13,707 nucleotides of DNA from a virus, in the UHGV virus genome UHGV-1773339; one strand, given 5' to 3'. Below are positions 277-10,192 of this stretch, piece after piece. Made by a program: the position numbers and the translations under genes. Position 1 is the stretch's first letter, and each line of letters opens with the position of its first letter. The notes under the pieces are model-generated. The model saw only the letters and a program-made list of their open reading frames with translations. It was not told the DNA's origin and ran no database searches.

Positions 277-1446
277 ATGTCCTTGAAAAAGTTATTACAA
301 GATTGTGTTACGCGCGGTCAAGAAATGACCCAAGCAATTGCTATAGCTCAATTCGGTGATGATAGTCCTGAAGCTCGGCGTATCACGCGTAGATGGGGGA
401 TAACTGAAGTAGCAGATTTAATTGGTGTAACTCCTCAAGCAATAAGAGATGCTGAGAAGAACGGGCGTTTACCTGCACCTGACTTTGAAATGAGAGGAAG
501 AGTTGAACGTCGTGCCGGTTATACCATAGATCAAATCAATAGTATGCGAGCTGTTTTTGGCAACCCAAACCAACGGCCACAAGATAAAAACCCAGTTGTG
601 CTTGCTGTTATGTCACACAAAGGCGGCGTTTATAAAACATCGTCTGCAGTACATCAGGCACAATGGCTAGCATTACAAGGTCATCGTGTTCTTTTAGTTG
701 AAGGTAACGATCCTCAGGGAACAGCCTCCATGTATCACGGTTATGTACCTGATTTACATATACATGCCGAGGATACTTTACTGCCATTTTACTTGGGCGA
801 ACGCGATAACGCTGAATATGCTATAAAACCAACATGCTGGCCTGGACTGGACATTATTCCTAGCTGCCTAGCTTTACACCGTATAGAAACAGATCTCATG
901 CAATATCATGCTCAGGGTAAATTGCCTCACCCTCCTCACCTGATGCTACGCGCAGCTATAGAATCAGTTTGGGATAACTACGATGTTATCGTTATAGATA
1001 GTGCTCCAAACCTCGGTACAGGAACCATTAACGTTGTTTGCGCAGCTGACGTTATCGTTGTTGCTACCCCTGCAGAATTATTTGATTACGCCTCTGTTCT
1101 ACAGTTTTTCACAATGCTTCTCGATCTCCTAGAAAGCGTTGACCTAGGCGGATTTGAGCCGACCGTTCGCTTGCTTCTGACTAAATATAGTCTCACTACA
1201 GGAAATCAATCACGATGGATGGAAGAGCAAATAAGAAATACATGGGGATCAATGGTATTACGTCAGGTTGTACGCGTTACCGATGAAGTAGGTAAAGGTC
1301 AGATAAAAATGCGAACAGTATTTGAACAAGCGGCAAACCAGCGTTCAACACTTAATGCATGGAGAAATGCCGTCTCTATATGGGACCCTGTTTGTCGAGA
1401 AATTTTTGATGATCTAATAAAACCTCGCTGGGAGAACGAAGAATGA
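277..1446 (+). CDS. sopA: Plasmid partition ATPase SopA (type Ia ParA with N-terminal DNA-binding extension)
   Basis: 389 aa ORF with ATG start and SD. Deviant Walker A box in 'VMSHKGGVYKTS'. The long N-terminal extension before the ATPase core is typical of type Ia ParA/SopA. The translation closely resembles F-plasmid SopA as I recall it. Stop overlaps the next gene start (ATGA). Confidence 0.93.
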   Translation: MSLKKLLQDCVTRGQEMTQAIAIAQFGDDSPEARRITRRWGITEVADLIGVTPQAIRDAEKNGRLPAPDFEMRGRVERRAGYTIDQINSMRAVFGNPNQRPQDKNPVVLAVMSHKGGVYKTSSAVHQAQWLALQGHRVLLVEGNDPQGTASMYHGYVPDLHIHAEDTLLPFYLGERDNAEYAIKPTCWPGLDIIPSCLALHRIETDLMQYHAQGKLPHPPHLMLRAAIESVWDNYDVIVIDSAPNLGTGTINVVCAADVIVVATPAELFDYASVLQFFTMLLDLLESVDLGGFEPTVRLLLTKYSLTTGNQSRWMEEQIRNTWGSMVLRQVVRVTDEVGKGQIKMRTVFEQAANQRSTLNAWRNAVSIWDPVCREIFDDLIKPRWENEE

Positions 1447-2432
1447 AACAACGCTCTCTTCTAAAAAATGCTCCGGATATTAATCGCATTATGAGTAATA
1501 ATCATCATGCACCTGAACATCAGCCGGTATCACCTATGGTTGGTGATTTAAAACGTCAACTGAGTTCATTAACCGGTAATAGCATAACTTTGCCAGTATG
1601 CGGACGTAATGTTAACTTTAAGTTAGAGACGATCCCCGCAGATAAAGTAGAAATGGCAACAATGGTATGGCTAGGTAATGAGCGTGATCAAGATTTATTA
1701 AATGAATCTTCTCTAGCTGATTTAATTCCATCTTTTCTAACTTCTGGGCAACAAAATCCGGCTTTCGCAAGAAAAGTGTCAGGTATTGTTGAAGTAGCTG
1801 ATGGTTCTCGAAGACGTAAAGCAGCCATTATAACTGGATGCGATTATCGTGTTCTTATTGGCGATTTAGATGATGAACAAATGCAATGGTTATCGCAGAT
1901 AGGCAACGACTATAGACCTATCAGCGCCTATGAAAGGGGGAAAAGATACCTGCGAAGGCTCCATGAATTTGACGGTAACGTAAAATCTTTAGCTGAAGCC
2001 GAAGGCGTGGATAGAAATATTATCAGCCGATGTATTAATACAGCCGGTTTACCTAAAGATATATTGGCAATATTTAACCATCCTGGTGAGTTATCAGCCA
2101 GAGCAGGAGACGCTCTTTTTAAAGCATATCAGGGACAGGAAGCAGCCATGAAAAATGCTGCATCTCAGTTGCTGAGGATGAAAAAATCAGGTGAAAGTTT
2201 AGATGCGCAAAGAATAATACAGGCTCTTCATGATTTCATTATTGTTGAGAAAAACAATTCACATGGAGAGAAAAGGGAAAAGAAATATGGAGACGGTGTT
2301 GTGGCGAAATATGGGAAAAATTTCACAACATTAAAATTAGATAACAGAAAAATACCATCGCACCTAATGAGTAAAATTGAATCTATTCTTGAGGAGGCGT
2401 TTGGAAATTCTTCCGATGTAAAAAATAACTAA
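1443..2432 (+). CDS. sopB: Plasmid partition centromere-binding protein SopB (ParB family)
   Basis: 329 aa ORF translationally coupled to sopA (ATGA overlap at 1443-1446). Recognisable SopB/ParB-like stretches (e.g. 'ITLPVCGR', 'GNERDQ', 'DGSRRRKAA', 'GNDYRPISAYERG'). Position immediately after the ParA gene. Ends at TAA 2430-2432. Confidence 0.92.
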   Translation: MKQRSLLKNAPDINRIMSNNHHAPEHQPVSPMVGDLKRQLSSLTGNSITLPVCGRNVNFKLETIPADKVEMATMVWLGNERDQDLLNESSLADLIPSFLTSGQQNPAFARKVSGIVEVADGSRRRKAAIITGCDYRVLIGDLDDEQMQWLSQIGNDYRPISAYERGKRYLRRLHEFDGNVKSLAEAEGVDRNIISRCINTAGLPKDILAIFNHPGELSARAGDALFKAYQGQEAAMKNAASQLLRMKKSGESLDAQRIIQALHDFIIVEKNNSHGEKREKKYGDGVVAKYGKNFTTLKLDNRKIPSHLMSKIESILEEAFGNSSDVKNN

Positions 2433-2448: not shown

Positions 2449-2475
2449 AGACCCCATCAGTTATAGATGGGGTCT
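2449..2475. terminator. Bidirectional intrinsic terminator between convergent sopB and the tail/accessory operon
   Basis: Perfect 10-bp inverted repeat agaccccatc / gatggggtct with a 7-nt loop, followed by a T-rich run on the plus strand (taattttatt) and preceded by an A-rich run (T-rich on the minus strand). Lies between the sopB stop (2432) and the stop of the minus-strand ORF (2481). Confidence 0.7.
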
Positions 2476-2480
2476 TAATT

Positions 2481-2768
2481 TTATTCAAAAAATATAAATA
2501 CAAGTAAACACGCCACCACCGGCACAGCAAAATCCATCAGGCTTGCTACATCCCATGCACGCGGATCAAAACCGCCCCACCACGGCATATTCATACGCTT
2601 GCCATGTCCGAACATTTCAATCCAGCGATATTCTGCCTGGGTGTGTTCACGCGCAATGAAGAACGTACAACCGGCTATCGCTCCGTAAGCCCAGTTCCCG
2701 GTAAAAAGACCAATCAGTAGCTGCGCAGCCACAGCACAAAGAGCATGAAGGAAAGGTGTTATATCCAT
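2481..2768 (-). CDS. Small multi-pass membrane protein of unknown function (candidate moron)
   Basis: 95 aa ORF with ATG start. Perfect SD (AAGGAGGAG) sits between the upstream stop TAA and the ATG on the minus strand. Three hydrophobic segments (about residues 5-25, 26-40, 75-94) around a Trp/Gly-rich loop 'MFGHGKRMNMPWWGGFDPRAWD'. No family recognised. Confidence 0.75.
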   Translation of the reverse strand: MDITPFLHALCAVAAQLLIGLFTGNWAYGAIAGCTFFIAREHTQAEYRWIEMFGHGKRMNMPWWGGFDPRAWDVASLMDFAVPVVACLLVFIFFE

Positions 2769-2778
2769 TACTCCTCCT

Positions 2779-3483
2779 TTAACCGATATCGCTTCGGGAA
2801 GTTGATAACAGCTTTAATTCTGACTCAAGTTCATCAACTCTTTCTGTCAGTTTCTGGATATGGTGAATCAGTGGAACAACCAGACGTTCGTACATTACAC
2901 CTTCGGCAACAAGGCCATTGCTGGAAATAGCTTCCGGTGCATCATCTTCGTTAGCTGGTCGCCAGTGTACAAACTGAGGGGCAATTTCTCCTACTTCCTC
3001 GGCAATCAATCCGTAGAATCCCCAGTCACGCCTGTCATTTTCGCATTGCGACCTGTACCACACAGGGCGCATCTTGAAAATGAGATCGGCGTGCTCTGAA
3101 TCTATCGTCTCTACTGAATGTTTATAGCGAATAGACGATGTTGACCGCAGCACAGACGAAATTGCGGGGTCAGGATTAAGATAAAGGTTTGCCGCCGCTG
3201 TAGTCGTGCCCAATCCCCATAAATAAAACGCTTCACGGCCAGTCAGCGGGTAAAAATCTCCACCATAATTACCGCTTTCCAGAGCATTCACTTCCAGTTT
3301 GTTTTTCAGCTTATTATCCACTTCAGTTTTTGTGTATCTGGAGCTGATATCCTGCTTTGCACTGGTCATCTCAGTCTGAAGCGTTGATACTTTTCCGCTA
3401 ATTGAGGAAATATCTTCCTTAGCTTTACTGACATCTCCCTTCAGCGTGGTGATATCTCCCGGAATTACTGTCGATGTAGCCAT
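2779..3483 (-). CDS. Coiled-coil protein with C-terminal peptidase-S74-like intramolecular chaperone domain (tail-fibre/tailspike-type auto-processing domain)
   Basis: 234 aa ORF, ATG start preceded by GAGGGAGA SD. C-terminal half shows the S74/chaperone-of-endosialidase pattern: Ser116...Lys121 dyad spacing ('SSIRYK'), 'DWGFYGLIAEEVGEIAPQFV', 'MYERLVVPLIHHIQKL', terminal coiled coil 'VDELESELKLL'. N-terminal 60 residues are heptad-like coiled coil. Confidence 0.75.
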   Translation of the reverse strand: MATSTVIPGDITTLKGDVSKAKEDISSISGKVSTLQTEMTSAKQDISSRYTKTEVDNKLKNKLEVNALESGNYGGDFYPLTGREAFYLWGLGTTTAAANLYLNPDPAISSVLRSTSSIRYKHSVETIDSEHADLIFKMRPVWYRSQCENDRRDWGFYGLIAEEVGEIAPQFVHWRPANEDDAPEAISSNGLVAEGVMYERLVVPLIHHIQKLTERVDELESELKLLSTSRSDIG

Positions 3484-3492
3484 TTGTCTCCC

Positions 3493-3774
3493 TCACATCC
3501 AGCCACGAAGTTGATGTTCAACTACAACCGCGTATTCATCGAATAATGACGGTGTTTTCACATCATTAATGATGCGCACGTTTACAAAATATCCGTCTTC
3601 CTTAACACATACCGGTTCGCCATCTTCATTCAGCTCTCCGGTTTCTTTGTACACGTTTCCTATCACATCAATGAGAACATTGTTCTGCATCACCTCGTCA
3701 TCGTAATAACCAATGCTATCCATAAAGGCCGAAAAGTCGGCCTTGTTTATGAATTTGAGGGTTAAGTCTCGCAT
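3493..3774 (-). CDS. Hypothetical acidic 93 aa protein, translationally coupled to the tail fibre gene
   Basis: ATG start shares one base with the stop of the upstream fibre gene (TAATG at 3772-3776, minus strand). Its stop is 9 nt before the next ORF start. No motif recognised. The position suggests a fibre accessory or assembly factor. Confidence 0.6.
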   Translation of the reverse strand: MRDLTLKFINKADFSAFMDSIGYYDDEVMQNNVLIDVIGNVYKETGELNEDGEPVCVKEDGYFVNVRIINDVKTPSLFDEYAVVVEHQLRGWM

Positions 3775-5981
3775 TATATTCTTTCTCCCATTTGTGCATC
3801 TGTCAGTTCCTTATGCCAGATACGTAAATTGCGCACGTGTCCAAATAAATGCCTGTTACCTGATATTGATTGACCGCCTATATTTATTGGCCCTTCTGTA
3901 TAACGTTGTCTTGTGTGTTGTGATACACCAACAGCGCCAAAGTTACCGTTTATAACAGCACGCAATTCTTTCTGCTCTGTAAACTTAAACCCAGCAATAA
4001 ACCTGCGGGTTGTCCTGTTACAGTAGGCTTTATACTCGGTCTTTGTTCCTTTTCCGTTAGTTATAATTGAGCGCGCGCCTCCAGAGGTAAAACCAAAATA
4101 CATATAACTTTCATCAGCAACATCCGTTGTTGCGCCAGTTATTGACACGTTAAGAAGCCTTGCTGAACCTTCACTGTTTGGCATTTTGTCCCAGTTGATA
4201 TTAACTTCCATAAGAACGCTTAACGGGGGCGTTGACCAGTTCAGTCTTATTGGCATTATTACCACTTCACTAGCCCGTGTAACTGCCACATCTGATGTAA
4301 CGATAAATGATGATGCACACGATCCTTTTTCAAATTGCGGCGTAGTAAACATTATCTGATCGCCTTTTTTGATCGCCCTTTTATCTGCTCCCATTTCAAA
4401 GCGCCCATACATGCTTTTTGCTTCTGGTGATTTATATGTAAATTCGACGCGTAACCATCCGTTAGCTTCTCTGTATATGACATGATTTACAGCATCCCCA
4501 CCAGAAAAACCTAAAACATCACCAGTTTCGCAATCTATGTAGGAACCAGCTACCAGCGTGTTGCTTGTGCCGTCATCGTTAACGAAAGATATTCTGGGTC
4601 TTAACGTTATAATACCTTCTCCATTTATCTTCTTAACCCTACAGGACAAGGTAACAGATTCATTTGCAGCAACATCAATAACCCTACTGTATCCAGTAGA
4701 TATTATCGTCGCCCTTTCAGTGGTTGATGTTTCCTTTACATCGAACAAACCATATTTAAAACCATATTCATCAACCGATGTGGTTATTTCTATATTCTTG
4801 TCGTCATAGTTCCATAATGAAGGATTGTTACTATTAGTAAATGTATTTGTCCTCTGACCTTCAATTAATAAACCTTCCTTTTCAAAGCGCGGCTCGTTAA
4901 TTTCTGCAAAAGCAAATGAACCTGATTTGTTTATATACGTTGCAGAAGTGGAGCGAGTGAAAGATACAACCTTCTCTGATGGAAAAGTAATAACATCATC
5001 ACCGATAGTTACTTTTTTATAACCAGGAGCGAAACCAGTAATCATTTCCAGCGAATCGTTAAATGGTATCCACACATCAGGAAGCGGCTGCAATACTTGT
5101 TTATACGGCTCCGCAGCCTGGCTTGCATACTCTCTGGCTGCATCCTCACTTGCTTTAGCTGCTGTCTGGCTTGCTGCCGATGCTTGCGCCGAGTTCGCCG
5201 CTGCAGTCTCGCTTGTCTTTGCATTGGTTTCACTGGTTTTTGCAGCTTTTTGACTGTTTGCTGATGCAGTGGCAGAAGCAGCCGCCGCACTTGCAGAACC
5301 AGCTGCGGCACTCTCGCTTTCGGCTGCTGCATCCTGACTGCTTTTCGCCGCAGTTTCACTGACTTTGGCATTCGTTTCGCTGGTCTTCGCTGCCGTCTGG
5401 CTGGACTTTGCGTTAGTTTCGCTCGCCTTCGCGGCTGTTTCGCTATTTTTCGCGTTGGTTTCTGATTTTTTGGCTGCTGTCGCGGAGTTTGCCGATGCAG
5501 TCTGCGAGGTCGCTGCCGCCTGTGCGCTGTTAGCTGCATTCGTTTCTGAGGTTTTCGCCGCGTTCTTCGATGAAGCCGCTGCAGTTTCGGATTTCTTTGC
5601 CGCCGCTGCGCTCTGAGAGGCGGCTTCGGCGTTGCGTGCCGCTTCTTCCACCATTGCCTCAAAACGGCGCAATGCCTCCGGCATGACATCATCTTCCGTC
5701 ATGGCACCGAGAAAATCATTCAGCGTACCTGGTCTGGAACCTTCATAGACGGTAATGGTCCCGGCATGTGAAGGCGGAAAACCTTCAACCAGCAGGGTGA
5801 CGCTGTACTGGCCATACTCAACATCCATGCTGTAACGTCCGGCTTCATCCGGATTTTCAGAAGCCACCGTGTTCACCAGTACCGTGGTGCTGTTACGCTT
5901 TGCCTTCAGTTGAATAGTGCAGTTCTGTATTGGTTTTCCCGCACCATCTTTCAGCACACCTGAGATTTTTACTGCTGCCAT
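3774..5981 (-). CDS. stf: Side tail fibre protein: lambda Stf-like N-terminal anchor, Ala-rich repeat stalk, novel distal region
   Basis: Long ORF. The track begins at a GTG (5987), but the ATG at 5981 gives 'MAAVKISGVLKDG...', matching the conserved Stf N-terminus as I recall it, with GGAG SD upstream. Residues about 120-285 are degenerate Ala-rich 'SETNAK/AAKTSE' repeats. The distal ~450 residues are encoded by lower-GC DNA and end in a LamG/concanavalin-like looking motif ('GNRHLFGHVRNLRIWHKELTDAQM'). Confidence 0.85.
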   Translation of the reverse strand: MAAVKISGVLKDGAGKPIQNCTIQLKAKRNSTTVLVNTVASENPDEAGRYSMDVEYGQYSVTLLVEGFPPSHAGTITVYEGSRPGTLNDFLGAMTEDDVMPEALRRFEAMVEEAARNAEAASQSAAAAKKSETAAASSKNAAKTSETNAANSAQAAATSQTASANSATAAKKSETNAKNSETAAKASETNAKSSQTAAKTSETNAKVSETAAKSSQDAAAESESAAAGSASAAAASATASANSQKAAKTSETNAKTSETAAANSAQASAASQTAAKASEDAAREYASQAAEPYKQVLQPLPDVWIPFNDSLEMITGFAPGYKKVTIGDDVITFPSEKVVSFTRSTSATYINKSGSFAFAEINEPRFEKEGLLIEGQRTNTFTNSNNPSLWNYDDKNIEITTSVDEYGFKYGLFDVKETSTTERATIISTGYSRVIDVAANESVTLSCRVKKINGEGIITLRPRISFVNDDGTSNTLVAGSYIDCETGDVLGFSGGDAVNHVIYREANGWLRVEFTYKSPEAKSMYGRFEMGADKRAIKKGDQIMFTTPQFEKGSCASSFIVTSDVAVTRASEVVIMPIRLNWSTPPLSVLMEVNINWDKMPNSEGSARLLNVSITGATTDVADESYMYFGFTSGGARSIITNGKGTKTEYKAYCNRTTRRFIAGFKFTEQKELRAVINGNFGAVGVSQHTRQRYTEGPINIGGQSISGNRHLFGHVRNLRIWHKELTDAQMGERI
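5133..5630 (-). repeat. In-frame degenerate tandem repeats encoding the Ala/Ser/Thr-rich fibre stalk
   Basis: Repeated gc(a/t)gc-rich DNA encoding reiterated KxSETNAK / TAAKxSE units. This generates the spurious Arg-rich and Ala/Phe-rich ORFs seen in other frames and strands. Confidence 0.7.
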
Positions 5982-5990
5982 ATCCACTCC

Positions 5991-6045: not shown

Positions 6046-6645
6046 TCAGAATTTATAACCGACACCCACGATGAAACCGTCAGTGCGCCAGTCGCCACTG
6101 CCGGAGCCTTCATAAGCAATATCAATGGCCACGGATTCGGTCGGGTTAAACTGCACGCCAGCTCCCCACGCCAGAGACGTGTTGCTGTGGCGACCGTCAT
6201 CACTTCCGGTCAGCACATCGTGCGTTTTCCCCTTGTTGTCAGTTACGCGGAGATAATCCCCGGAGAACGTCGAAACACGGCTGTAAGCCACACCTGCCAT
6301 CGCATAAGCACTGAACCATTCATTCACGCGTACAGATGGCCCCGCCATCATGCTGAACCAGCGGTTACGCACTGAATCTTCATGCCAGCGGGTATCGCTG
6401 TAATGCGTTTTTTGCTCATCTTTGGCATTGGCATAACTGAATGACGTCACCAGCCCCAGCGTGTCCGTAAATTCATAACGGTATTTCACGTTAATGCCCT
6501 TCAGGTCATCACTGCCTGGCATATCAGTATGGGCCTGAAGATACCCGGCGCTTAGTGTGGACTGATGCTCTGCTGCGCTCGCTGGCGTACCAGCGGCAAC
6601 CAGCCAGACTACTGCGGACAGAATAACAGCACATAATTTACGCAT
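6046..6645 (-). CDS. lom: Outer-membrane beta-barrel protein of the Lom/Ail/PagC/OmpX family
   Basis: 199 aa. N-terminal signal peptide ('...AAGTPASAAEH'), alternating amphipathic beta-strand pattern, C-terminal '...DWRTDGFIVGVGYKF' with terminal Phe typical of OMP barrels. Synteny (directly after J) as in lambda. Confidence 0.9.
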   Translation of the reverse strand: MRKLCAVILSAVVWLVAAGTPASAAEHQSTLSAGYLQAHTDMPGSDDLKGINVKYRYEFTDTLGLVTSFSYANAKDEQKTHYSDTRWHEDSVRNRWFSMMAGPSVRVNEWFSAYAMAGVAYSRVSTFSGDYLRVTDNKGKTHDVLTGSDDGRHSNTSLAWGAGVQFNPTESVAIDIAYEGSGSGDWRTDGFIVGVGYKF

Positions 6646-6712: not shown

Positions 6713-9700
6713 TCAGCTGATACTGATGCCTGCGGTGGCTTTCTTCATCACCACAACCAGCAAATCGCTGATACTTGCTGTGGGATACCAGCCATTTACC
6801 CACCATGCTGATACCGAAAACTCCAGTGTCATTACGCCACTGCCTGCAGGCATATCAATAACACCCGTGTAAATCAGAGTATTATCCAGAGCCGTTCGGT
6901 TATAAATTTCAGCCCCGTTTTTCTTCACTATCAGGCGGCATGACGAATAAGTATCGCTATTCTCCCGTTCATGTCTGGCACCGCTGAAAGCCACCGCTGG
7001 AATAACAATTTGCCGGTCAAACGGCTGATCGTCATAAACCCTGACGGTAATGGTCCCTGATGGCCACCGTTCCGGTGCACGGGAGTCCCGGGGGAAAGCT
7101 TTGCCCACTGTTTTAACGAGATCGCCTTCAATCTGGTTCGCGGACAGTTTTCCCAGAACCCGGCAATTCTCGTTAATCGTGACGTTGTTGAGCGTCCCGG
7201 AGTTCGCATTCACGTTACCGCTGATATCGGCATTTTTCGCCGTCAGCCGCCCGTCCGGTGTCAGGGAAAATGCCGGAGGATTACCGCCGCTGGTAATGGT
7301 GGGAGCCGTCAGGTATTTCAGGAACACTTCGTTCATGAATATCTGATCGCCCTGACCAACAAACATCGGCTTTGTGTTGCCATTCGCAGGATTAATCATC
7401 GCAATCCTGTCTGCCGCCAGCAGCACCTGACTCTGCATGCCGTCAGGGGTGTTTTCAATACCGGCACCAATACCCGCGATATAAAGGCGTCCGTCCTGCA
7501 TCTGCTGCAGCTTCACAGCCCACATGCTGTTCAGGTTATTATTTGTATCAACCTGAACCTTCTGTATCTGCTGGATCGCTGCACTCTGGTCTTCCAGTTT
7601 CTTATTGACGGTCTGCGTGATTTCATTACTGACATCCGTGATGGACGTTCTGATTTCCGCCAGGTCAGGCGCAAGCTGACCGTTATCAATCTGCGTCCAC
7701 AGCTCCTGAGCCAGATGGGTTTTCCCTATCTCTCCTTTGAAAAAATCCAGATAGCCGGATGCATCATCACTCGGCTGGCCAACAGCCTCCACGAATGCCG
7801 ATTTGCCAACGGTGTTCACACTGCGGATGTAAAAATAATAATCATGGCCCGGCTTGATATTGATACTGGCAGCTATCCAGTACAGCGCCGTGCCAAGATA
7901 GCGGGCTGTGGTTTCAACCTGCCTGATATCCGCAATCCGTTTTTCCGAGAACCAGAACTCAAACTGTACCGTCGGGTCATAAACCGCAAGATGCGGCGTG
8001 GCGGTTATCTGAAAATAGCCCGGCGTCAGCTCAATCCGCGACGGCGCTGCCGGTGCGGCAATCCGGAACGATACCGACGCCGGATCGCCCTGCTGCCCCC
8101 AGGCATTTGCCGCCCGGACTGTCAGCCTGTAGTTTCCCAACGCCAGTTGCGTGAAGCGGTATGTGGTTTCCGTCGTCCGGGCCGTGCTGACCAGCCGCTC
8201 ACTGCCGTCATCCGCTGCCACGGTCAGGCGAAGCATAAAGCTCACGCCCTTCACCACCTTCGGCGTGTCCCAGCGCGCCAGCACCTGGTATTCCCCGCTG
8301 TCTGCGGTGACTTCGGCGGTCAGGTGCTGCACCGCTGGCGGCGTGACACCATTCACCGTGCCGCTCTGGTCGCCGTCAAAGTGCGCCCCGTTATCCACGA
8401 TGGCTTCTTTTTCCGGTACATGCTGCACGGCAGTGATGGCATACGTGCCGTCGTCGTTCTCACGGATACTCACGCAGCGGAACAGGCGCTGGCGCAGCGT
8501 CGGCAGCTTCAGCCCCCACACGCTGTATTCTGCAACGCCGTCAGGAACCCGGCTCACTTTCACCTTCACGCCGTCGGTGACGGACTGGACCTCCACGCTG
8601 ACCGGATTGCCACTTCCGTCAACCAGGCTTATCAGCGTGGTGCCGGAGGATGGCAGCGTGATTTCACGGTCGAGCGTCAGCGTCCGGGTCTGGCTGTTCA
8701 CAGCCAGCACGCGCCCGCCGATGCTGATACCGGCATAGTCATCATCGCAGATTTCAATGACATCGCCCGGTACATGGCGAAGCCCTTCAGCACCCACGCT
8801 GAAGTCCACGGTCTGCGTTTCCAGCAGTTCCGTTTTAATCAGCCACAGCCCGGCGCGGTGTGCCTGCCCCCGGCTGGTACAGCCAAAGGCATCCATCTTC
8901 GTGACGTTACGACCGTAACGGGCAATGGCCTGCGTATCTTCAACAAGCTCTGTCGCCGTCTCCCAGCCGTTATTCGGGTCAATCCAGTTCACCTCAACGG
9001 CATTATGGCGGTCCTTCAGGGCGCTGAAACTGTAGCGGAACGGCGCGCCATCATCCGGCATCACCACATTACTGCGGTTATAGGTCCACACCTTATCCGA
9101 CGGTCGGTCCTGCACGAACGTCAGCGTCTGCCCGTTCCATACCGGCATACAGCGCATCGCCGAGCAGAAATCACTGAGCACATCCCACGCCTTGCGCTGT
9201 GTGGTCAGGTACGCATTACAGGTGATGCGCGGCTCCGTGCCGCCAAAGCCGTCCGGCACTGACTGGTCGCAGTACTGGCCGATGACATACAGCGCCCATT
9301 TATCCACATCCGCCGCACCAAGACGTTTCCCCATGCCGTAGCGCGGGTGGGTCAGCATATCCCACAGACACCAGGCCATGTTGTTGCTGTATGCCGGTTT
9401 AAACGTTCCGTCCCAGATACCGCTGTATTGCCGCGTCTGCGGGTTATAATTCGACGGCACCTGCAGAATACGCCCGCGCAGATGATAATTACGGCTCACC
9501 TGCTGGCTGCCGAACTGCTCCGAGTCCACCTGCACGCCGACCAGTGCCGTGTTCGGGTAGCACTGTTTCACATCGATGATTTCGGTGTATGACGACCAGA
9601 GCGTTTTGTTCTGCAGCTGGTCTGTGGTGCTGTCCGGCGTCATCCTGCGCATCCGTATATTGAACGGGCGCGGCGGCAGGTTATCCACCACCACCGAGGC

Positions 9701-10192
9701 CAGATACTGCGAGGTGGTTTTGCCCTTAATGGTGATGTCTTTTTCCGTCACCCAGCCACCGTTACGCTGTATCTGAACCAGCAGTCGGACCTCCGACGGA
9801 TTCCTGTCACCCTTTGAGGTGGTTTCCACCAGTGCCTGTACACCGAAGGTAAAGCGCAGACGGTCGATGTTTGCCGACGTGATGGTCCGGGTGATCGGCG
9901 TGTCATATTTCACTTCCGTACCCAGCACCGTCTCGGAGCCGGAGGATTCAAATCCCTCCGGCGGTGTCTGCTCCTGCTCACCTGCCCGGAAAACCACCGT
10001 GACACCGGAGATATTGGTATTCCCCTCACTGTCCAGCACTGGCGTACTGTTCAGCAGCACGCTTTTTAATCCATCCACCGGACCTTCAACCGGCCCTTCG
10101 CTGATGGCATCGATCACACTCAGCAACTGCGTGGACTTCAGGTTGTCCTTCGCTTCGCGCGGGGTATGCCCCTTACTGCTGCCTTTACCCAT
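6713..10192 (-). CDS. J: Tail tip / host specificity protein J (central tail fibre)
   Basis: 1159 aa ORF with ATG start, N-terminus '[20 protein letters not shown]' as in lambda gpJ. Size and position after I match the lambda order. The final ~1 kb of the gene has lower GC, as expected for a receptor-binding region. Confidence 0.95.

What the first reader, a model, noticed from the sequence alone, without database searches (positions are those of the whole stretch)
2481..2768. 95 aa membrane protein with a perfect Shine-Dalgarno at the end of the tail operon: candidate lysogenic-conversion or superinfection-exclusion moron
Small inner-membrane proteins at the distal end of tail operons in temperate phages are often morons that alter envelope function or block DNA entry of other phages (for example HK97 gp15; Cor of phi80/N15 is a functional precedent at a similar locus). 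This ORF has a consensus RBS (AAGGAGGAG) and three predicted transmembrane segments, but no lipobox and no positively charged N-terminus, so it is not a typical Cor lipoprotein. Function is unassigned.
Basis: inference. Interest (0 to 1): 0.6.

Follow-up and report, generated by a model that had tools for sequence, protein, structure and literature searches.

The report
Conserved membrane protein trailing phage receptor-binding genes
The 95-residue ORF is a real, strongly conserved small inner-membrane protein of unknown function. Across very different phages it sits immediately after, and is often translationally coupled to, the tail-fibre or tailspike gene, so it looks like a late, fibre-linked accessory gene rather than a self-expressed lysogenic-conversion moron.

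Summary
The ORF at 2481-2768 (- strand) is real. It encodes 95 aa, has an AAGGAGG Shine-Dalgarno 4 nt before the ATG, has no lipobox, and is under purifying selection (dN/dS about 0.12).

It is a full-length member of PHROG 1443 (function unknown). It gave no hit in Pfam, NCBIfam, PADLOC or PDB sequences, and no specific fold match. Its 1.4-kb neighbourhood occurs in 1851 of 5426 complete E. coli genomes.

The window is an N15-like linear plasmid-prophage. The gene is the last gene of the tail-fibre operon, convergent with sopAB.

Homologues lie directly after the receptor-binding gene in lambdoid, P2/HP1-like, P22-like and Kuttervirus-like phages, with gaps of -1 to about 45 nt. This holds in Escherichia, Salmonella, Enterobacter, Citrobacter, Pantoea, Leclercia, Comamonas, Halomonas, Chelativorans and Desulfovibrio.

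No promoter-like site precedes the gene. In sibling alleles a terminator-like hairpin does. This points to late, read-through expression, not classic moron expression. Sphingomonadales carry chromosomal, non-phage homologues.

Function remains unassigned. My best guess, at low confidence, is a generic exclusion or envelope-altering factor coupled to receptor-binding genes. It is not Cor-like, holin-like or Gtr-like by sequence.

The parts
2481..2768 (-). The 95-aa small inner-membrane protein ('t95'), a member of PHROG 1443. It has a TM1-TM2 hairpin with GxxxG motifs (G20xxxG24, G29xxxG33), a conserved amphipathic segment REHTQAEYRWI...KRxNMPWWGGFDxRxW, and a third TM helix.
   Evidence: (phrog_1443, E=5.4e-57, residues 1-93 of 97)
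2773..2779 (-). Shine-Dalgarno AAGGAGG, 4 nt (AGTA) before the ATG. It overlaps the TAA stop (2779-2781) of the upstream gene.
2449..2475 (.). Bidirectional intrinsic-terminator-like hairpin (10-bp stem, 6 GC pairs, T-runs on both strands). It ends both the tail-fibre operon and the convergent sopAB operon.
   Evidence: the same hairpin is found in PhiR46_1
2779..3483 (-). A 234-aa short tail-fibre protein with a C-terminal Peptidase_S74 intramolecular chaperone domain. It is the gene immediately upstream of t95. Sibling phages carry a 346-aa version.
   Evidence: PF13884, E=4e-6; phrog_3299 C-terminus, E=5e-139
3493..3774 (-). A 93-aa acidic soluble protein (PHROG 1361, function unknown). It recurs between stf and t95 in E. 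coli phages, and a remote relative (phrog_18574) sits in the same position in Comamonas.
3774..5987 (-). A 737-aa side tail fibre (Stf), with a phage_tail_N N-terminus and a distal 'GTA head-spike-fibre'-type domain (phrog_1419/5939).

Best explanation
t95 is a small integral inner-membrane accessory protein. It is made from the late tail-fibre transcript, by translational coupling or read-through from the receptor-binding-protein (RBP) gene. It is not a promoter-bearing moron.

Its invariant polar and aromatic motif (R40-E41-x-x-Q44-x-E46-x-R48 ... W72, plus H8, R58, D79 and P83) lies at one membrane interface. The positive-inside rule places that interface on the cytoplasmic side. Because the motif is the same whatever RBP precedes the gene, I infer that it binds a conserved host envelope component rather than the fibre's receptor-specific part.

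The mechanism I commit to, at low confidence, is a generic change at the inner membrane of the infected or lysogenic cell that excludes further phage. This could work by blocking genome entry (functionally like T4 Imm, HK97 gp15 or P22 SieA) or by damping synthesis of surface receptor glycans.

Shown: the gene is real, it is conserved, it is predicted to be membrane-embedded, it is linked to RBP genes, and no promoter-like site was detected. Inferred: late expression, topology, target and phenotype.
For: Gene reality and constraint:
- There are 573 homologues and dN/dS is about 0.12.
- R40, E41, Q44, E46, R48, W72 and P83 are invariant in an alignment spanning gamma-, beta-, alpha- and deltaproteobacterial hosts and five phage types.

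Linkage to RBP genes:
- Phage 21 and ev017: Stf, then a 92-aa protein, then t95.
- phiHAP-1: directly after the tail-fibre assembly gene and before the sheath gene.
- Comamonas, Pantoea and Chelativorans: after phrog_5939-type fibres.
- Leclercia fibre and Desulfovibrio spike.
- Enterobacter P2/HP1-like prophage: S74 fibre, then t95 with a 0-nt gap.
- Citrobacter: J, then a pectate-lyase spike, then t95.
- P22-like prophage: tailspike, then t95 with a TAATG overlap, then the prophage end.
- A 160-kb Kuttervirus-like contig: t95 between two tailspike genes.

Expression:
- The gap to the upstream gene is 10 nt and the SD overlaps that gene's stop.
- No promoter-like site lies on the gene's strand.
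- A terminator-like hairpin sits directly upstream in about 29 sibling loci.

The slot is variable: N15 has a UmuD-like gene there.

No similarity was found to structural, lysis or known defence proteins.
Against: - No phenotype, expression or interaction data exist. The literature search found nothing on this family.
- Expression together with late tail genes is a poor time to start excluding other phages or to change surface glycans.
- A generic exclusion factor gives no obvious reason for such tight coupling to RBP genes.
- Chromosomal, non-prophage homologues in Sphingomonadales (four directly after ligA) suggest a cell-autonomous function unrelated to phage.
- The family also occurs away from RBP genes: after the terminase in jumbo phage PS1 and upstream of gp10 in Aeromonas phage 4_4512.
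- Topology is unsettled. The E. coli-type proteins predict a cytoplasmic loop, whereas the Sphingomonad proteins have Arg-rich C-tails.
Confidence: 0.3

Rival explanations
1. t95 is a membrane-anchored helper for RBP production or assembly. It is made stoichiometrically with the fibre or spike, and its cytoplasm-facing conserved loop assists folding, trimerisation or attachment of fibres, or keeps them from being sequestered at the membrane.
For: In many unrelated phage types the t95 start overlaps or abuts the RBP stop codon, as is usual for fibre-chaperone pairs. In E. coli and Comamonas it travels as a triple: fibre (phrog_5939/1419), a roughly 93-aa protein, then t95. The predicted topology puts the conserved loop in the cytoplasm.
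Against: The same t95 sequence (about 60% identity) follows structurally unrelated RBPs: S74 fibres, P22-type Head_binding tailspikes, pectate-lyase spikes and P2-type fibre plus Tfa. There is therefore no co-variation with the supposed client. S74 fibres and P22-type tailspikes fold without such a helper (established knowledge). Homologues exist with no RBP nearby (Sphingomonadales chromosomes, jumbo phage PS1). To my knowledge no membrane-bound fibre chaperone has been described.
Confidence: 0.17
2. t95 is a lysis-timing factor, either a holin-like or antiholin-like membrane protein, expressed at the very end of the late operon.
For: It is a small protein with two or three TMDs, apparently late-expressed, and the last gene after the RBP genes. 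From my own knowledge, the T4 holin gene t follows gene 38, and in many Gram-positive phages the holin follows the fibre genes.
Against: It gave no hit to any holin, antiholin or spanin family in Pfam or PHROGs at E<=0.1. It lacks the charged C-terminal tail typical of holins, ending 1-4 residues after TM3. Its 35-residue conserved loop and 45-60% identity across bacterial classes are unlike holins. From my own knowledge, phage 21 already has its own S21/R21 lysis cassette elsewhere. The Sphingomonad copies are chromosomal.
Confidence: 0.13
3. t95 is a captured cellular envelope-homeostasis protein (an auxiliary 'host-like' gene). It has an intrinsic biochemical or ligand-binding activity at the membrane interface, for example towards a lipid head group or lipid carrier. 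Phages carry it to keep the envelope in a favourable state, and it ends up after RBP genes because that is where cargo is tolerated.
For: Stand-alone chromosomal homologues lie in housekeeping contexts in Sphingomonadales and other Alphaproteobacteria, four of them directly after ligA. The invariant charged and aromatic cluster resembles a ligand or active site. The family is also present in virulent jumbo phages.
Against: At 95 aa with no recognisable catalytic motif it is an unlikely enzyme, and no Pfam, PDB or fold relative was found. A cargo-slot explanation does not account for the start/stop overlap with RBP genes or for the position between two tailspike genes.
Confidence: 0.2
4. This is the first reader's reading taken literally: a classical moron or lysogenic-conversion gene expressed from its own promoter in the lysogen, like lom, bor or cor.
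For: The gene occupies a variable slot at the end of the tail operon, next to the prophage end or the par genes. A strong terminator follows it. Related phages differ in whether they carry it.
Against: No promoter-like site lies upstream on its strand. The gap is only 10 nt. A terminator-like hairpin sits immediately upstream in sibling alleles, leaving 22 nt to the ATG. Its GC content (48%) is not distinct from the neighbouring fibre genes (42-46%). It also occurs in virulent-type phage genomes.
Confidence: 0.12

Closest known systems
PHROG 1443 (function unknown); RefSeq WP_021512622.1 'hypothetical protein'; UniProt label 'Ybl63'; phage 21 CPT_21_24 'putative membrane protein'
   Same: It is a full-length member (E=5.4e-57) and is 90-100% identical to the proteins in phage 21, PhiR46_1 and many wild lambdoid phages.
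   Different: Nothing. This is the family it belongs to, and that family has no assigned function.
Cor (phi80, N15, HK022) and T5 Llp, which are receptor-blocking superinfection-exclusion lipoproteins encoded next to tail or RBP genes
   Same: It is a small envelope protein encoded within or next to the tail/RBP module of a temperate phage. N15, a relative of this element, carries cor in the same operon.
   Different: t95 has no signal peptide or lipobox and is polytopic in the inner membrane rather than an outer-membrane lipoprotein. It shows no sequence similarity to Cor or Llp. Its sequence does not vary with RBP type, so it is unlikely to block a specific receptor.
T4 Imm, HK97 gp15 and P22 SieA, which are inner-membrane proteins that block phage genome entry
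   Same: It is a small helical inner-membrane protein encoded by a phage, and a generic exclusion role would fit its RBP-independent sequence.
   Different: It matched only three PHROG families, all of unknown function. It appears to be expressed with late genes rather than early or in the lysogen. Its function is untested.
O-antigen conversion modules next to tailspike genes (P22 gtrABC, Sf6 oac, epsilon15 and D3 polymerase inhibitors)
   Same: In a P22-like prophage the homologue lies directly after the tailspike gene at the prophage end. It is a small hydrophobic protein like the epsilon15 and D3 Wzy inhibitors (my own knowledge).
   Different: It gave no Pfam or PHROG hit to GtrA or any other conversion family, and no partner glycosyl- or acetyl-transferase gene is present. 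It is co-directional with and overlaps the tailspike gene rather than being separately transcribed. Its sequence is conserved across hosts with unrelated O-antigen machinery.
Class I holins (lambda S105 type, three TMDs)
   Same: It is of similar size (95 aa), has up to three hydrophobic helices, and lies in a late operon.
   Different: It has no charged C-terminal tail, has a long conserved TM2-TM3 loop, is not next to an endolysin, and gave no holin family hit.

Membership tests
PHROG 1443 (uncharacterised phage protein family) | Full-length match to the family profile | tested here: met
   The match has E=5.4e-57 and 190.9 bits, covering residues 1-93 against profile positions 1-93 of 97.
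Cor / Llp receptor-blocking lipoproteins | N-terminal signal peptide with a positively charged n-region and a lipobox cysteine | tested here: not met
   The N-terminus is MDITPF with no K or R. C11 is preceded by H-A-L and is not conserved in the family.
Cor / Llp receptor-blocking lipoproteins | Sequence homology to Cor or Llp families | tested here: not met
   The only PHROG hits are phrog_1443, phrog_34165 and phrog_9191, all of unknown function. There is no Pfam or NCBIfam hit.
Moron in the Hendrix sense (autonomous transcription unit inside a late operon) | Own promoter immediately upstream | tested here: not met
   The gap to the upstream gene is 10 nt. There is no sigma-70-like site on the - strand between 2769 and about 3777. 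The equivalent regions of PhiR46_1 and phage 21 also have none within about 360 nt and 1 kb of the ATG respectively. This was a consensus scan only, so weak or non-sigma-70 promoters are not excluded.
Moron in the Hendrix sense | Own terminator immediately downstream | tested here: met
   A hairpin at 2449-2475 with a 10-bp stem and a T-run lies 5 nt after the stop codon.
Moron in the Hendrix sense | Present or absent between otherwise related phages, and base composition distinct from neighbours | tested here: inconclusive
   The slot holds a UmuD-like gene in N15, which supports variable content. GC content is 48.3% against 42-46% for the adjacent fibre genes, which is not distinctive.
Holins | At least one TMD plus a highly charged hydrophilic C-terminus, usually adjacent to an endolysin, with a holin family match | tested here: not met
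   The C-terminal tail is 1-4 residues long. There is no holin hit in Pfam or PHROGs. The neighbours are fibre and partition genes.
Known anti-phage defence proteins (PADLOC-DB 2.0) | Match to any defence-system model | tested here: not met
   No families matched at E<=0.1.
Inner-membrane superinfection-exclusion proteins (Imm / gp15 / SieA), as a functional class | Blocks genome entry of a superinfecting phage when expressed alone | not testable with these tools
   This needs efficiency-of-plating, adsorption and DNA-entry assays. Sequence similarity is absent.
GtrA / seroconversion modules | GtrA-like four-TM flippase fold or family hit, plus partner transferase genes | tested here: not met
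   There is no Pfam hit and no transferase gene in the operon.

The most novel reading that the evidence does not exclude
t95 defines an unrecognised, near-universal 'RBP-trailing' membrane factor of Gram-negative phages. It is translationally coupled to tail fibres and tailspikes of every architecture. Through its invariant RE-x2-Q-x-E-x-R/W motif it acts on one conserved inner-membrane target, for example a lipid-carrier-dependent glycan pathway or the genome-entry route. Cellular homologues in Sphingomonadales point to the ancestral activity.
Probability: 0.25. Interest if true: 0.75.

Novelty: new variant of a known kind. Interest (0 to 1): 0.5.

Why it matters
The 1.4-kb fibre-end segment that contains this gene occurs in about a third of complete E. 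coli genomes (1851 of 5426, often in several copies), and the family occurs in phages of four morphotypes, yet it has no name, no Pfam family and no literature.

Its near-obligate position right behind receptor-binding genes, independent of RBP type, suggests a general and still unknown step linked to phage adsorption organelles or to exclusion. Receptor-binding modules are what people swap when engineering phage host range, and what phages themselves exchange. An unrecognised co-travelling gene therefore matters both for phage engineering and for interpreting prophage-encoded resistance.

It is a cheap and well-defined target for experiments: 95 aa, seven invariant residues, and tractable phages such as phage 21 and PhiR46_1.

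Tried and rejected
- Homology to known families: Pfam, NCBIfam and PADLOC gave nothing. A profile against PDB sequences gave nothing at E<=10.
- Weak PhoR N-terminal (PF11808) hits: these appeared in 4 of 41 members (best E=0.0035, below the curated cut-off). I judged them compositional, reflecting a TM hairpin followed by a Trp-rich stretch, not homology.
I rejected the label as spurious.
- Tai/Ati tail-assembly-interference systems (PMC11364771): these lie at a different locus, before the packaging module, and involve different proteins. Rejected.
- Obligate pairing of t95 with the 93-aa neighbour across taxa: phmmer/hmmsearch found the 93-aa protein only in the Escherichia-type loci. One remote PHROG-level relative exists in Comamonas. 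The pairing is therefore not general.
- Conserved chromosomal partner genes in Alphaproteobacteria: only ligA recurs, in 4 loci.
- Literature searches for the family identifiers and for fibre-adjacent small membrane proteins found nothing relevant.
- A distant-member alignment was too variable to scan IMG/VR.

Full report
**1. The observation**

The - strand ORF at 2481-2768 encodes 95 aa: MDITPFLHALCAVAAQLLIGLFTGNWAYGAIAGCTFFIAREHTQAEYRWIEMFGHGKRMNMPWWGGFDPRAWDVASLMDFAVPVVACLLVFIFFE. I call this protein t95 below. Read on the - strand, the upstream sequence is TAA-AGGAGG-AGTA-ATG. The SD AAGGAGG occupies 2779-2773, the spacer is 4 nt, and the TAA stop of the preceding 234-aa ORF overlaps the SD, so only 10 nt separate the two genes.

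Five bases after the t95 stop lies a hairpin with a 10-bp stem (6 GC pairs) and T-runs on both strands, at 2449-2475. It ends both this operon and the convergent sopB.

Hydropathy shows strong hydrophobic segments at about 3-24 and 76-94, and a weaker one at 25-39. An AlphaFold2 model built on a 36-sequence alignment has mean pLDDT 93.7, with helices at 3-22, 25-52 and 73-93. There is no lipobox and no basic N-terminus.

The ORF is a real gene:
- It has 573 homologues at E<=1e-3 in the 5.8-billion-protein set.
- It has 443 clusters at 50% identity in the exhaustive HMM search, all stand-alone proteins of about 60-145 aa.
- Mean dN/dS is about 0.13 and the median 0.12 over 47 distinct alleles.

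**2. Where the window comes from**

The - strand carries lambda-like tail genes in the order H, M, L, K, I, J (6713-10192), lom (6046-6645) and stf (3774-5987). These are followed by a 93-aa ORF, a 234-aa ORF with a Peptidase_S74 chaperone domain, and t95. The + strand carries sopA and sopB (277-2432).

The t95 protein is 100% identical to a 'hypothetical protein' of Escherichia phage PhiR46_1. That phage has the same layout and an annotated telR site, which makes it an N15-like linear plasmid-prophage. The 1.4-kb region around t95 is 100% identical to E. coli plasmid p13TMH22-2, where the protein is WP_021512622.1.

**3. What the protein is**

- It is a full-length member of PHROG 1443, function unknown (E=5.4e-57).
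- It gave no hit in Pfam, NCBIfam or PADLOC.
- A family profile gave no hit against PDB sequences at E<=10.
- Source names are all 'hypothetical', apart from 'Ybl63', 'putative membrane protein' (phage 21) and one 'prolipoprotein diacylglyceryl transferase'. I tested that last label against E. coli Lgt and rejected it (hhalign probability 0.03).
- Weak sub-threshold hits to the PhoR N-terminal TM hairpin occurred in 4 of 41 members. I take them as compositional.
- Literature searches found nothing on the family.

**4. Conservation**

Within Gamma- and Betaproteobacteria, 24 columns are invariant. In a 13-sequence alignment the invariant residues are R40, E41, Q44, E46, R48, W72 and P83. That alignment spans E. 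coli, Halomonas phiHAP-1, Aeromonas podo- and jumbo phages, Comamonas, Chelativorans, Desulfovibrio, Sphingomonas and a Dehalococcoidia MAG. Over 224 members, H8, G29, A45, R58, P62 and D79 are also conserved at >=86%.

TM1 and TM2 carry GxxxG motifs (G20xxxG24, G29xxxG33). Residues 40-53 extend TM2 as an amphipathic helix, and the following loop is Trp-rich (PWWGGFD..W).

K+R counts over the 224 members average 5.7 in the central loop, against 0.8 in the TM1-TM2 turn plus C-tail. The positive-inside rule therefore predicts N-in, conserved loop cytoplasmic and C-out for the E. coli type. The Sphingomonad homologues have Arg-rich C-tails, so I do not consider the topology settled.

**5. Genomic context, the main result**

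In E. coli relatives the order is stf, a 93-aa protein, an optional second fibre gene, then t95. Of the 80 closest IMG/VR loci, 67 have the 93-aa gene upstream and 43 have the S74 fibre gene adjacent. In phage 21 and ev017, t95 directly follows the 92-aa gene and is convergent with sitABCD cargo.

Outside E. coli, homologues lie directly after receptor-binding genes of unrelated kinds:

| Element or host | Context of the t95 homologue |
|---|---|
| Comamonas, Pantoea, Chelativorans | After phrog_5939-type fibres |
| Leclercia | After a 720-aa fibre |
| Pantoea | After a phrog_2837 tail protein |
| Halomonas sp. H2 | Two genes after a fibre |
| Acidovorax | J, then two genes, then t95 |
| Desulfovibrio | After a 935-aa tailspike, TAA-ATG with 0 gap |
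| Enterobacter (P2/HP1-like prophage) | After a 939-aa Phage_tail_fib plus S74 fibre, 0 gap |
| Citrobacter (lambdoid prophage) | J, a pectate-lyase spike, t95, then host genes |
| P22-like prophage | Head_binding tailspike, t95 with a TAATG overlap, then host genes |
| 160-kb Kuttervirus-like contig (Salmonella assembly) | Between two tailspike genes |

There are exceptions:
- Jumbo Aeromonas phage PS1: after the terminase.
- Aeromonas P22-like phage 4_4512: between an unassigned 698-aa gene and gp10.
- Aeromonas phage 62AhydR11PP: one gene away from a convergent tailspike.
- About 30 alphaproteobacterial loci, mostly Sphingomonadales. Their flanking genes are housekeeping types rather than phage genes, and four lie directly after ligA.

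**6. Expression signals**

No sigma-70-like site lies on the gene's strand from the ATG back to about 3777 in the window. None lies within about 360 nt of the ATG in PhiR46_1, or within about 1 kb in phage 21.

Three junction types occur in close relatives:
- The window type, in which the SD overlaps the fibre gene's stop.
- A type in which the terminator-like hairpin GGGGCCGAGCGCCCC plus a T-run lies between the 346-aa fibre gene and t95. It leaves 22 nt to the ATG. About 29 loci have it, including PhiR46_1.
- The phage 21 type, in which t95 lies directly after the 92-aa gene.

A similar hairpin precedes the gene in the Kuttervirus-like contig. Together with the start/stop overlaps, this argues that t95 is transcribed and translated as the tail end of the late RBP message. 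In lambdoid phages this would be by antiterminated RNA polymerase, which is established knowledge for lambda Q and an inference here. It argues against an autonomous moron. This rests on consensus scans and is not proof.

**7. Interpretation**

The following points are shown:
- The gene is real.
- It belongs to an uncharacterised family.
- Its sequence is extremely constrained.
- It is predicted to be a helical membrane protein.
- It is recurrently and tightly linked to RBP genes, independent of RBP type.
- It lacks a detectable promoter.
- It sits in a slot of variable content, since N15 has a UmuD-like gene there.
- Cellular homologues exist.

Everything about function is inferred.

Because the sequence does not co-vary with the RBP, t95 is unlikely to recognise a particular receptor or fibre. 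It more likely engages a conserved envelope component.

- Best guess: a generic exclusion or envelope-altering inner-membrane factor co-inherited with RBP modules (confidence 0.3).
- Rival: a captured cellular envelope protein carried as an auxiliary gene (0.2).
- Rival: a membrane-anchored helper of RBP production (0.17).
- Rival: a lysis-timing factor (0.13).
- Rival: the literal promoter-bearing lysogenic-conversion moron (0.12).

The main weakness of my best guess is that late expression is a poor time to begin exclusion. The main weakness of the assembly and lysis rivals is the existence of RBP-free and phage-free homologues.

**8. Comparison with known systems**

- It is not Cor or Llp: it has no lipobox and no homology.
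- It is not a holin by family or by architecture.
- It is not GtrA-like.
- It is not in PADLOC.
- It matches no PHROG family of known function.

It works in the same genomic niche as Cor, Llp, gtr and oac, which are RBP-adjacent envelope genes. It differs in being generic in sequence, polytopic, and translationally coupled to the RBP gene.

**9. Verdict**

Its interpretation is partly supported. The gene is an ordinary-looking but strikingly conserved and widespread unknown. Its new and testable feature is its coupling to RBP genes across phage types.

Noticed in passing
window 277-2432 (+), with the context in L001 (PhiR46_1): A SopA/SopB (ParA/ParB) partition operon is convergent with the tail-fibre operon. 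The closest phage has an annotated telR site. The window is therefore part of an N15-like linear plasmid-prophage, not an integrated lambdoid prophage.
   Followed up: partly
window 2779-3483 (-): The 234-aa fibre ORF is a short form of a family that is 346 aa in PhiR46_1 and E. coli relatives, and up to about 1385 aa in PHROG 3299. It keeps a roughly 32-aa N-terminal adaptor (phrog_4563, residues 1-32), a coiled-coil stretch and the Peptidase_S74 chaperone domain, but lacks most of a shaft or tip. It may be a deletion derivative or a minimal fibre.
   Followed up: partly
window 3493-3774 (-): A 93-aa acidic soluble protein (PHROG 1361, unknown function) lies between stf and the downstream genes in 67 of 80 close loci. 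It has a remote relative (phrog_18574) at the same position in Comamonas. It is a candidate assembly factor for the 'GTA head-spike-fibre'-type Stf tip.
   Followed up: partly
L001 7965-7979 and about 29 IMG/VR loci (for example L011, L014); also L157 just upstream of 6001: A GC-rich hairpin plus T-run (terminator-like) sits between the fibre or tailspike gene and the t95 homologue. It leaves only a weak SD before the ATG. Expression there would need terminator read-through.
   Followed up: partly
L136, L140, L147, L148, L150 and about 25 other alphaproteobacterial loci: Chromosomal, apparently non-prophage homologues of t95 occur in Sphingomonadales. Four lie immediately downstream of NAD-dependent DNA ligase (ligA). 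All have Arg-rich C-terminal tails and lack the N-terminal MD(I/L)(T/S)P of the phage forms.
   Followed up: partly
window 5042-5692 (-), 216-aa ORF inside stf; imperfect 21-nt repeats at 5272-5312 and 5374-5444: A long Arg/Gln/Pro-rich ORF lies in another frame of the same strand within stf. It coincides with the Ala/Ser/Thr-rich repetitive shaft region (SETNAK.. repeats) and looks like a compositional artefact, not a gene.
   Followed up: no
L163 (plasmid p13TMH22-2, NZ_CP019258.1 10871-26271): The 75-kb 'circular' record holds two inverted copies of the t95-sopB-sopA segment facing each other. One copy has frameshifts, and an IS3 element interrupts stf. This may be a head-to-head assembly of a hairpin-ended linear plasmid-prophage.
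   Followed up: no
L156 (phage N15, 21692-22078 of NC_001901): In N15, the last slot before the terminator and sopB holds a UmuD-like gene (gene 26), while cor (gene 24) lies further upstream after J. This shows the slot is a cargo position whose content varies among N15-like phages.
   Followed up: yes
window 6046-6645 (-) versus 2481-5987: lom (GC 53%, GC3 56%) and J (GC 57%, GC3 68%) are much GC-richer than the stf, 93-aa, 234-aa and t95 block (GC 42-48%) and than sopAB (38-44%). This is consistent with mosaic origins of the fibre-end module.
   Followed up: no
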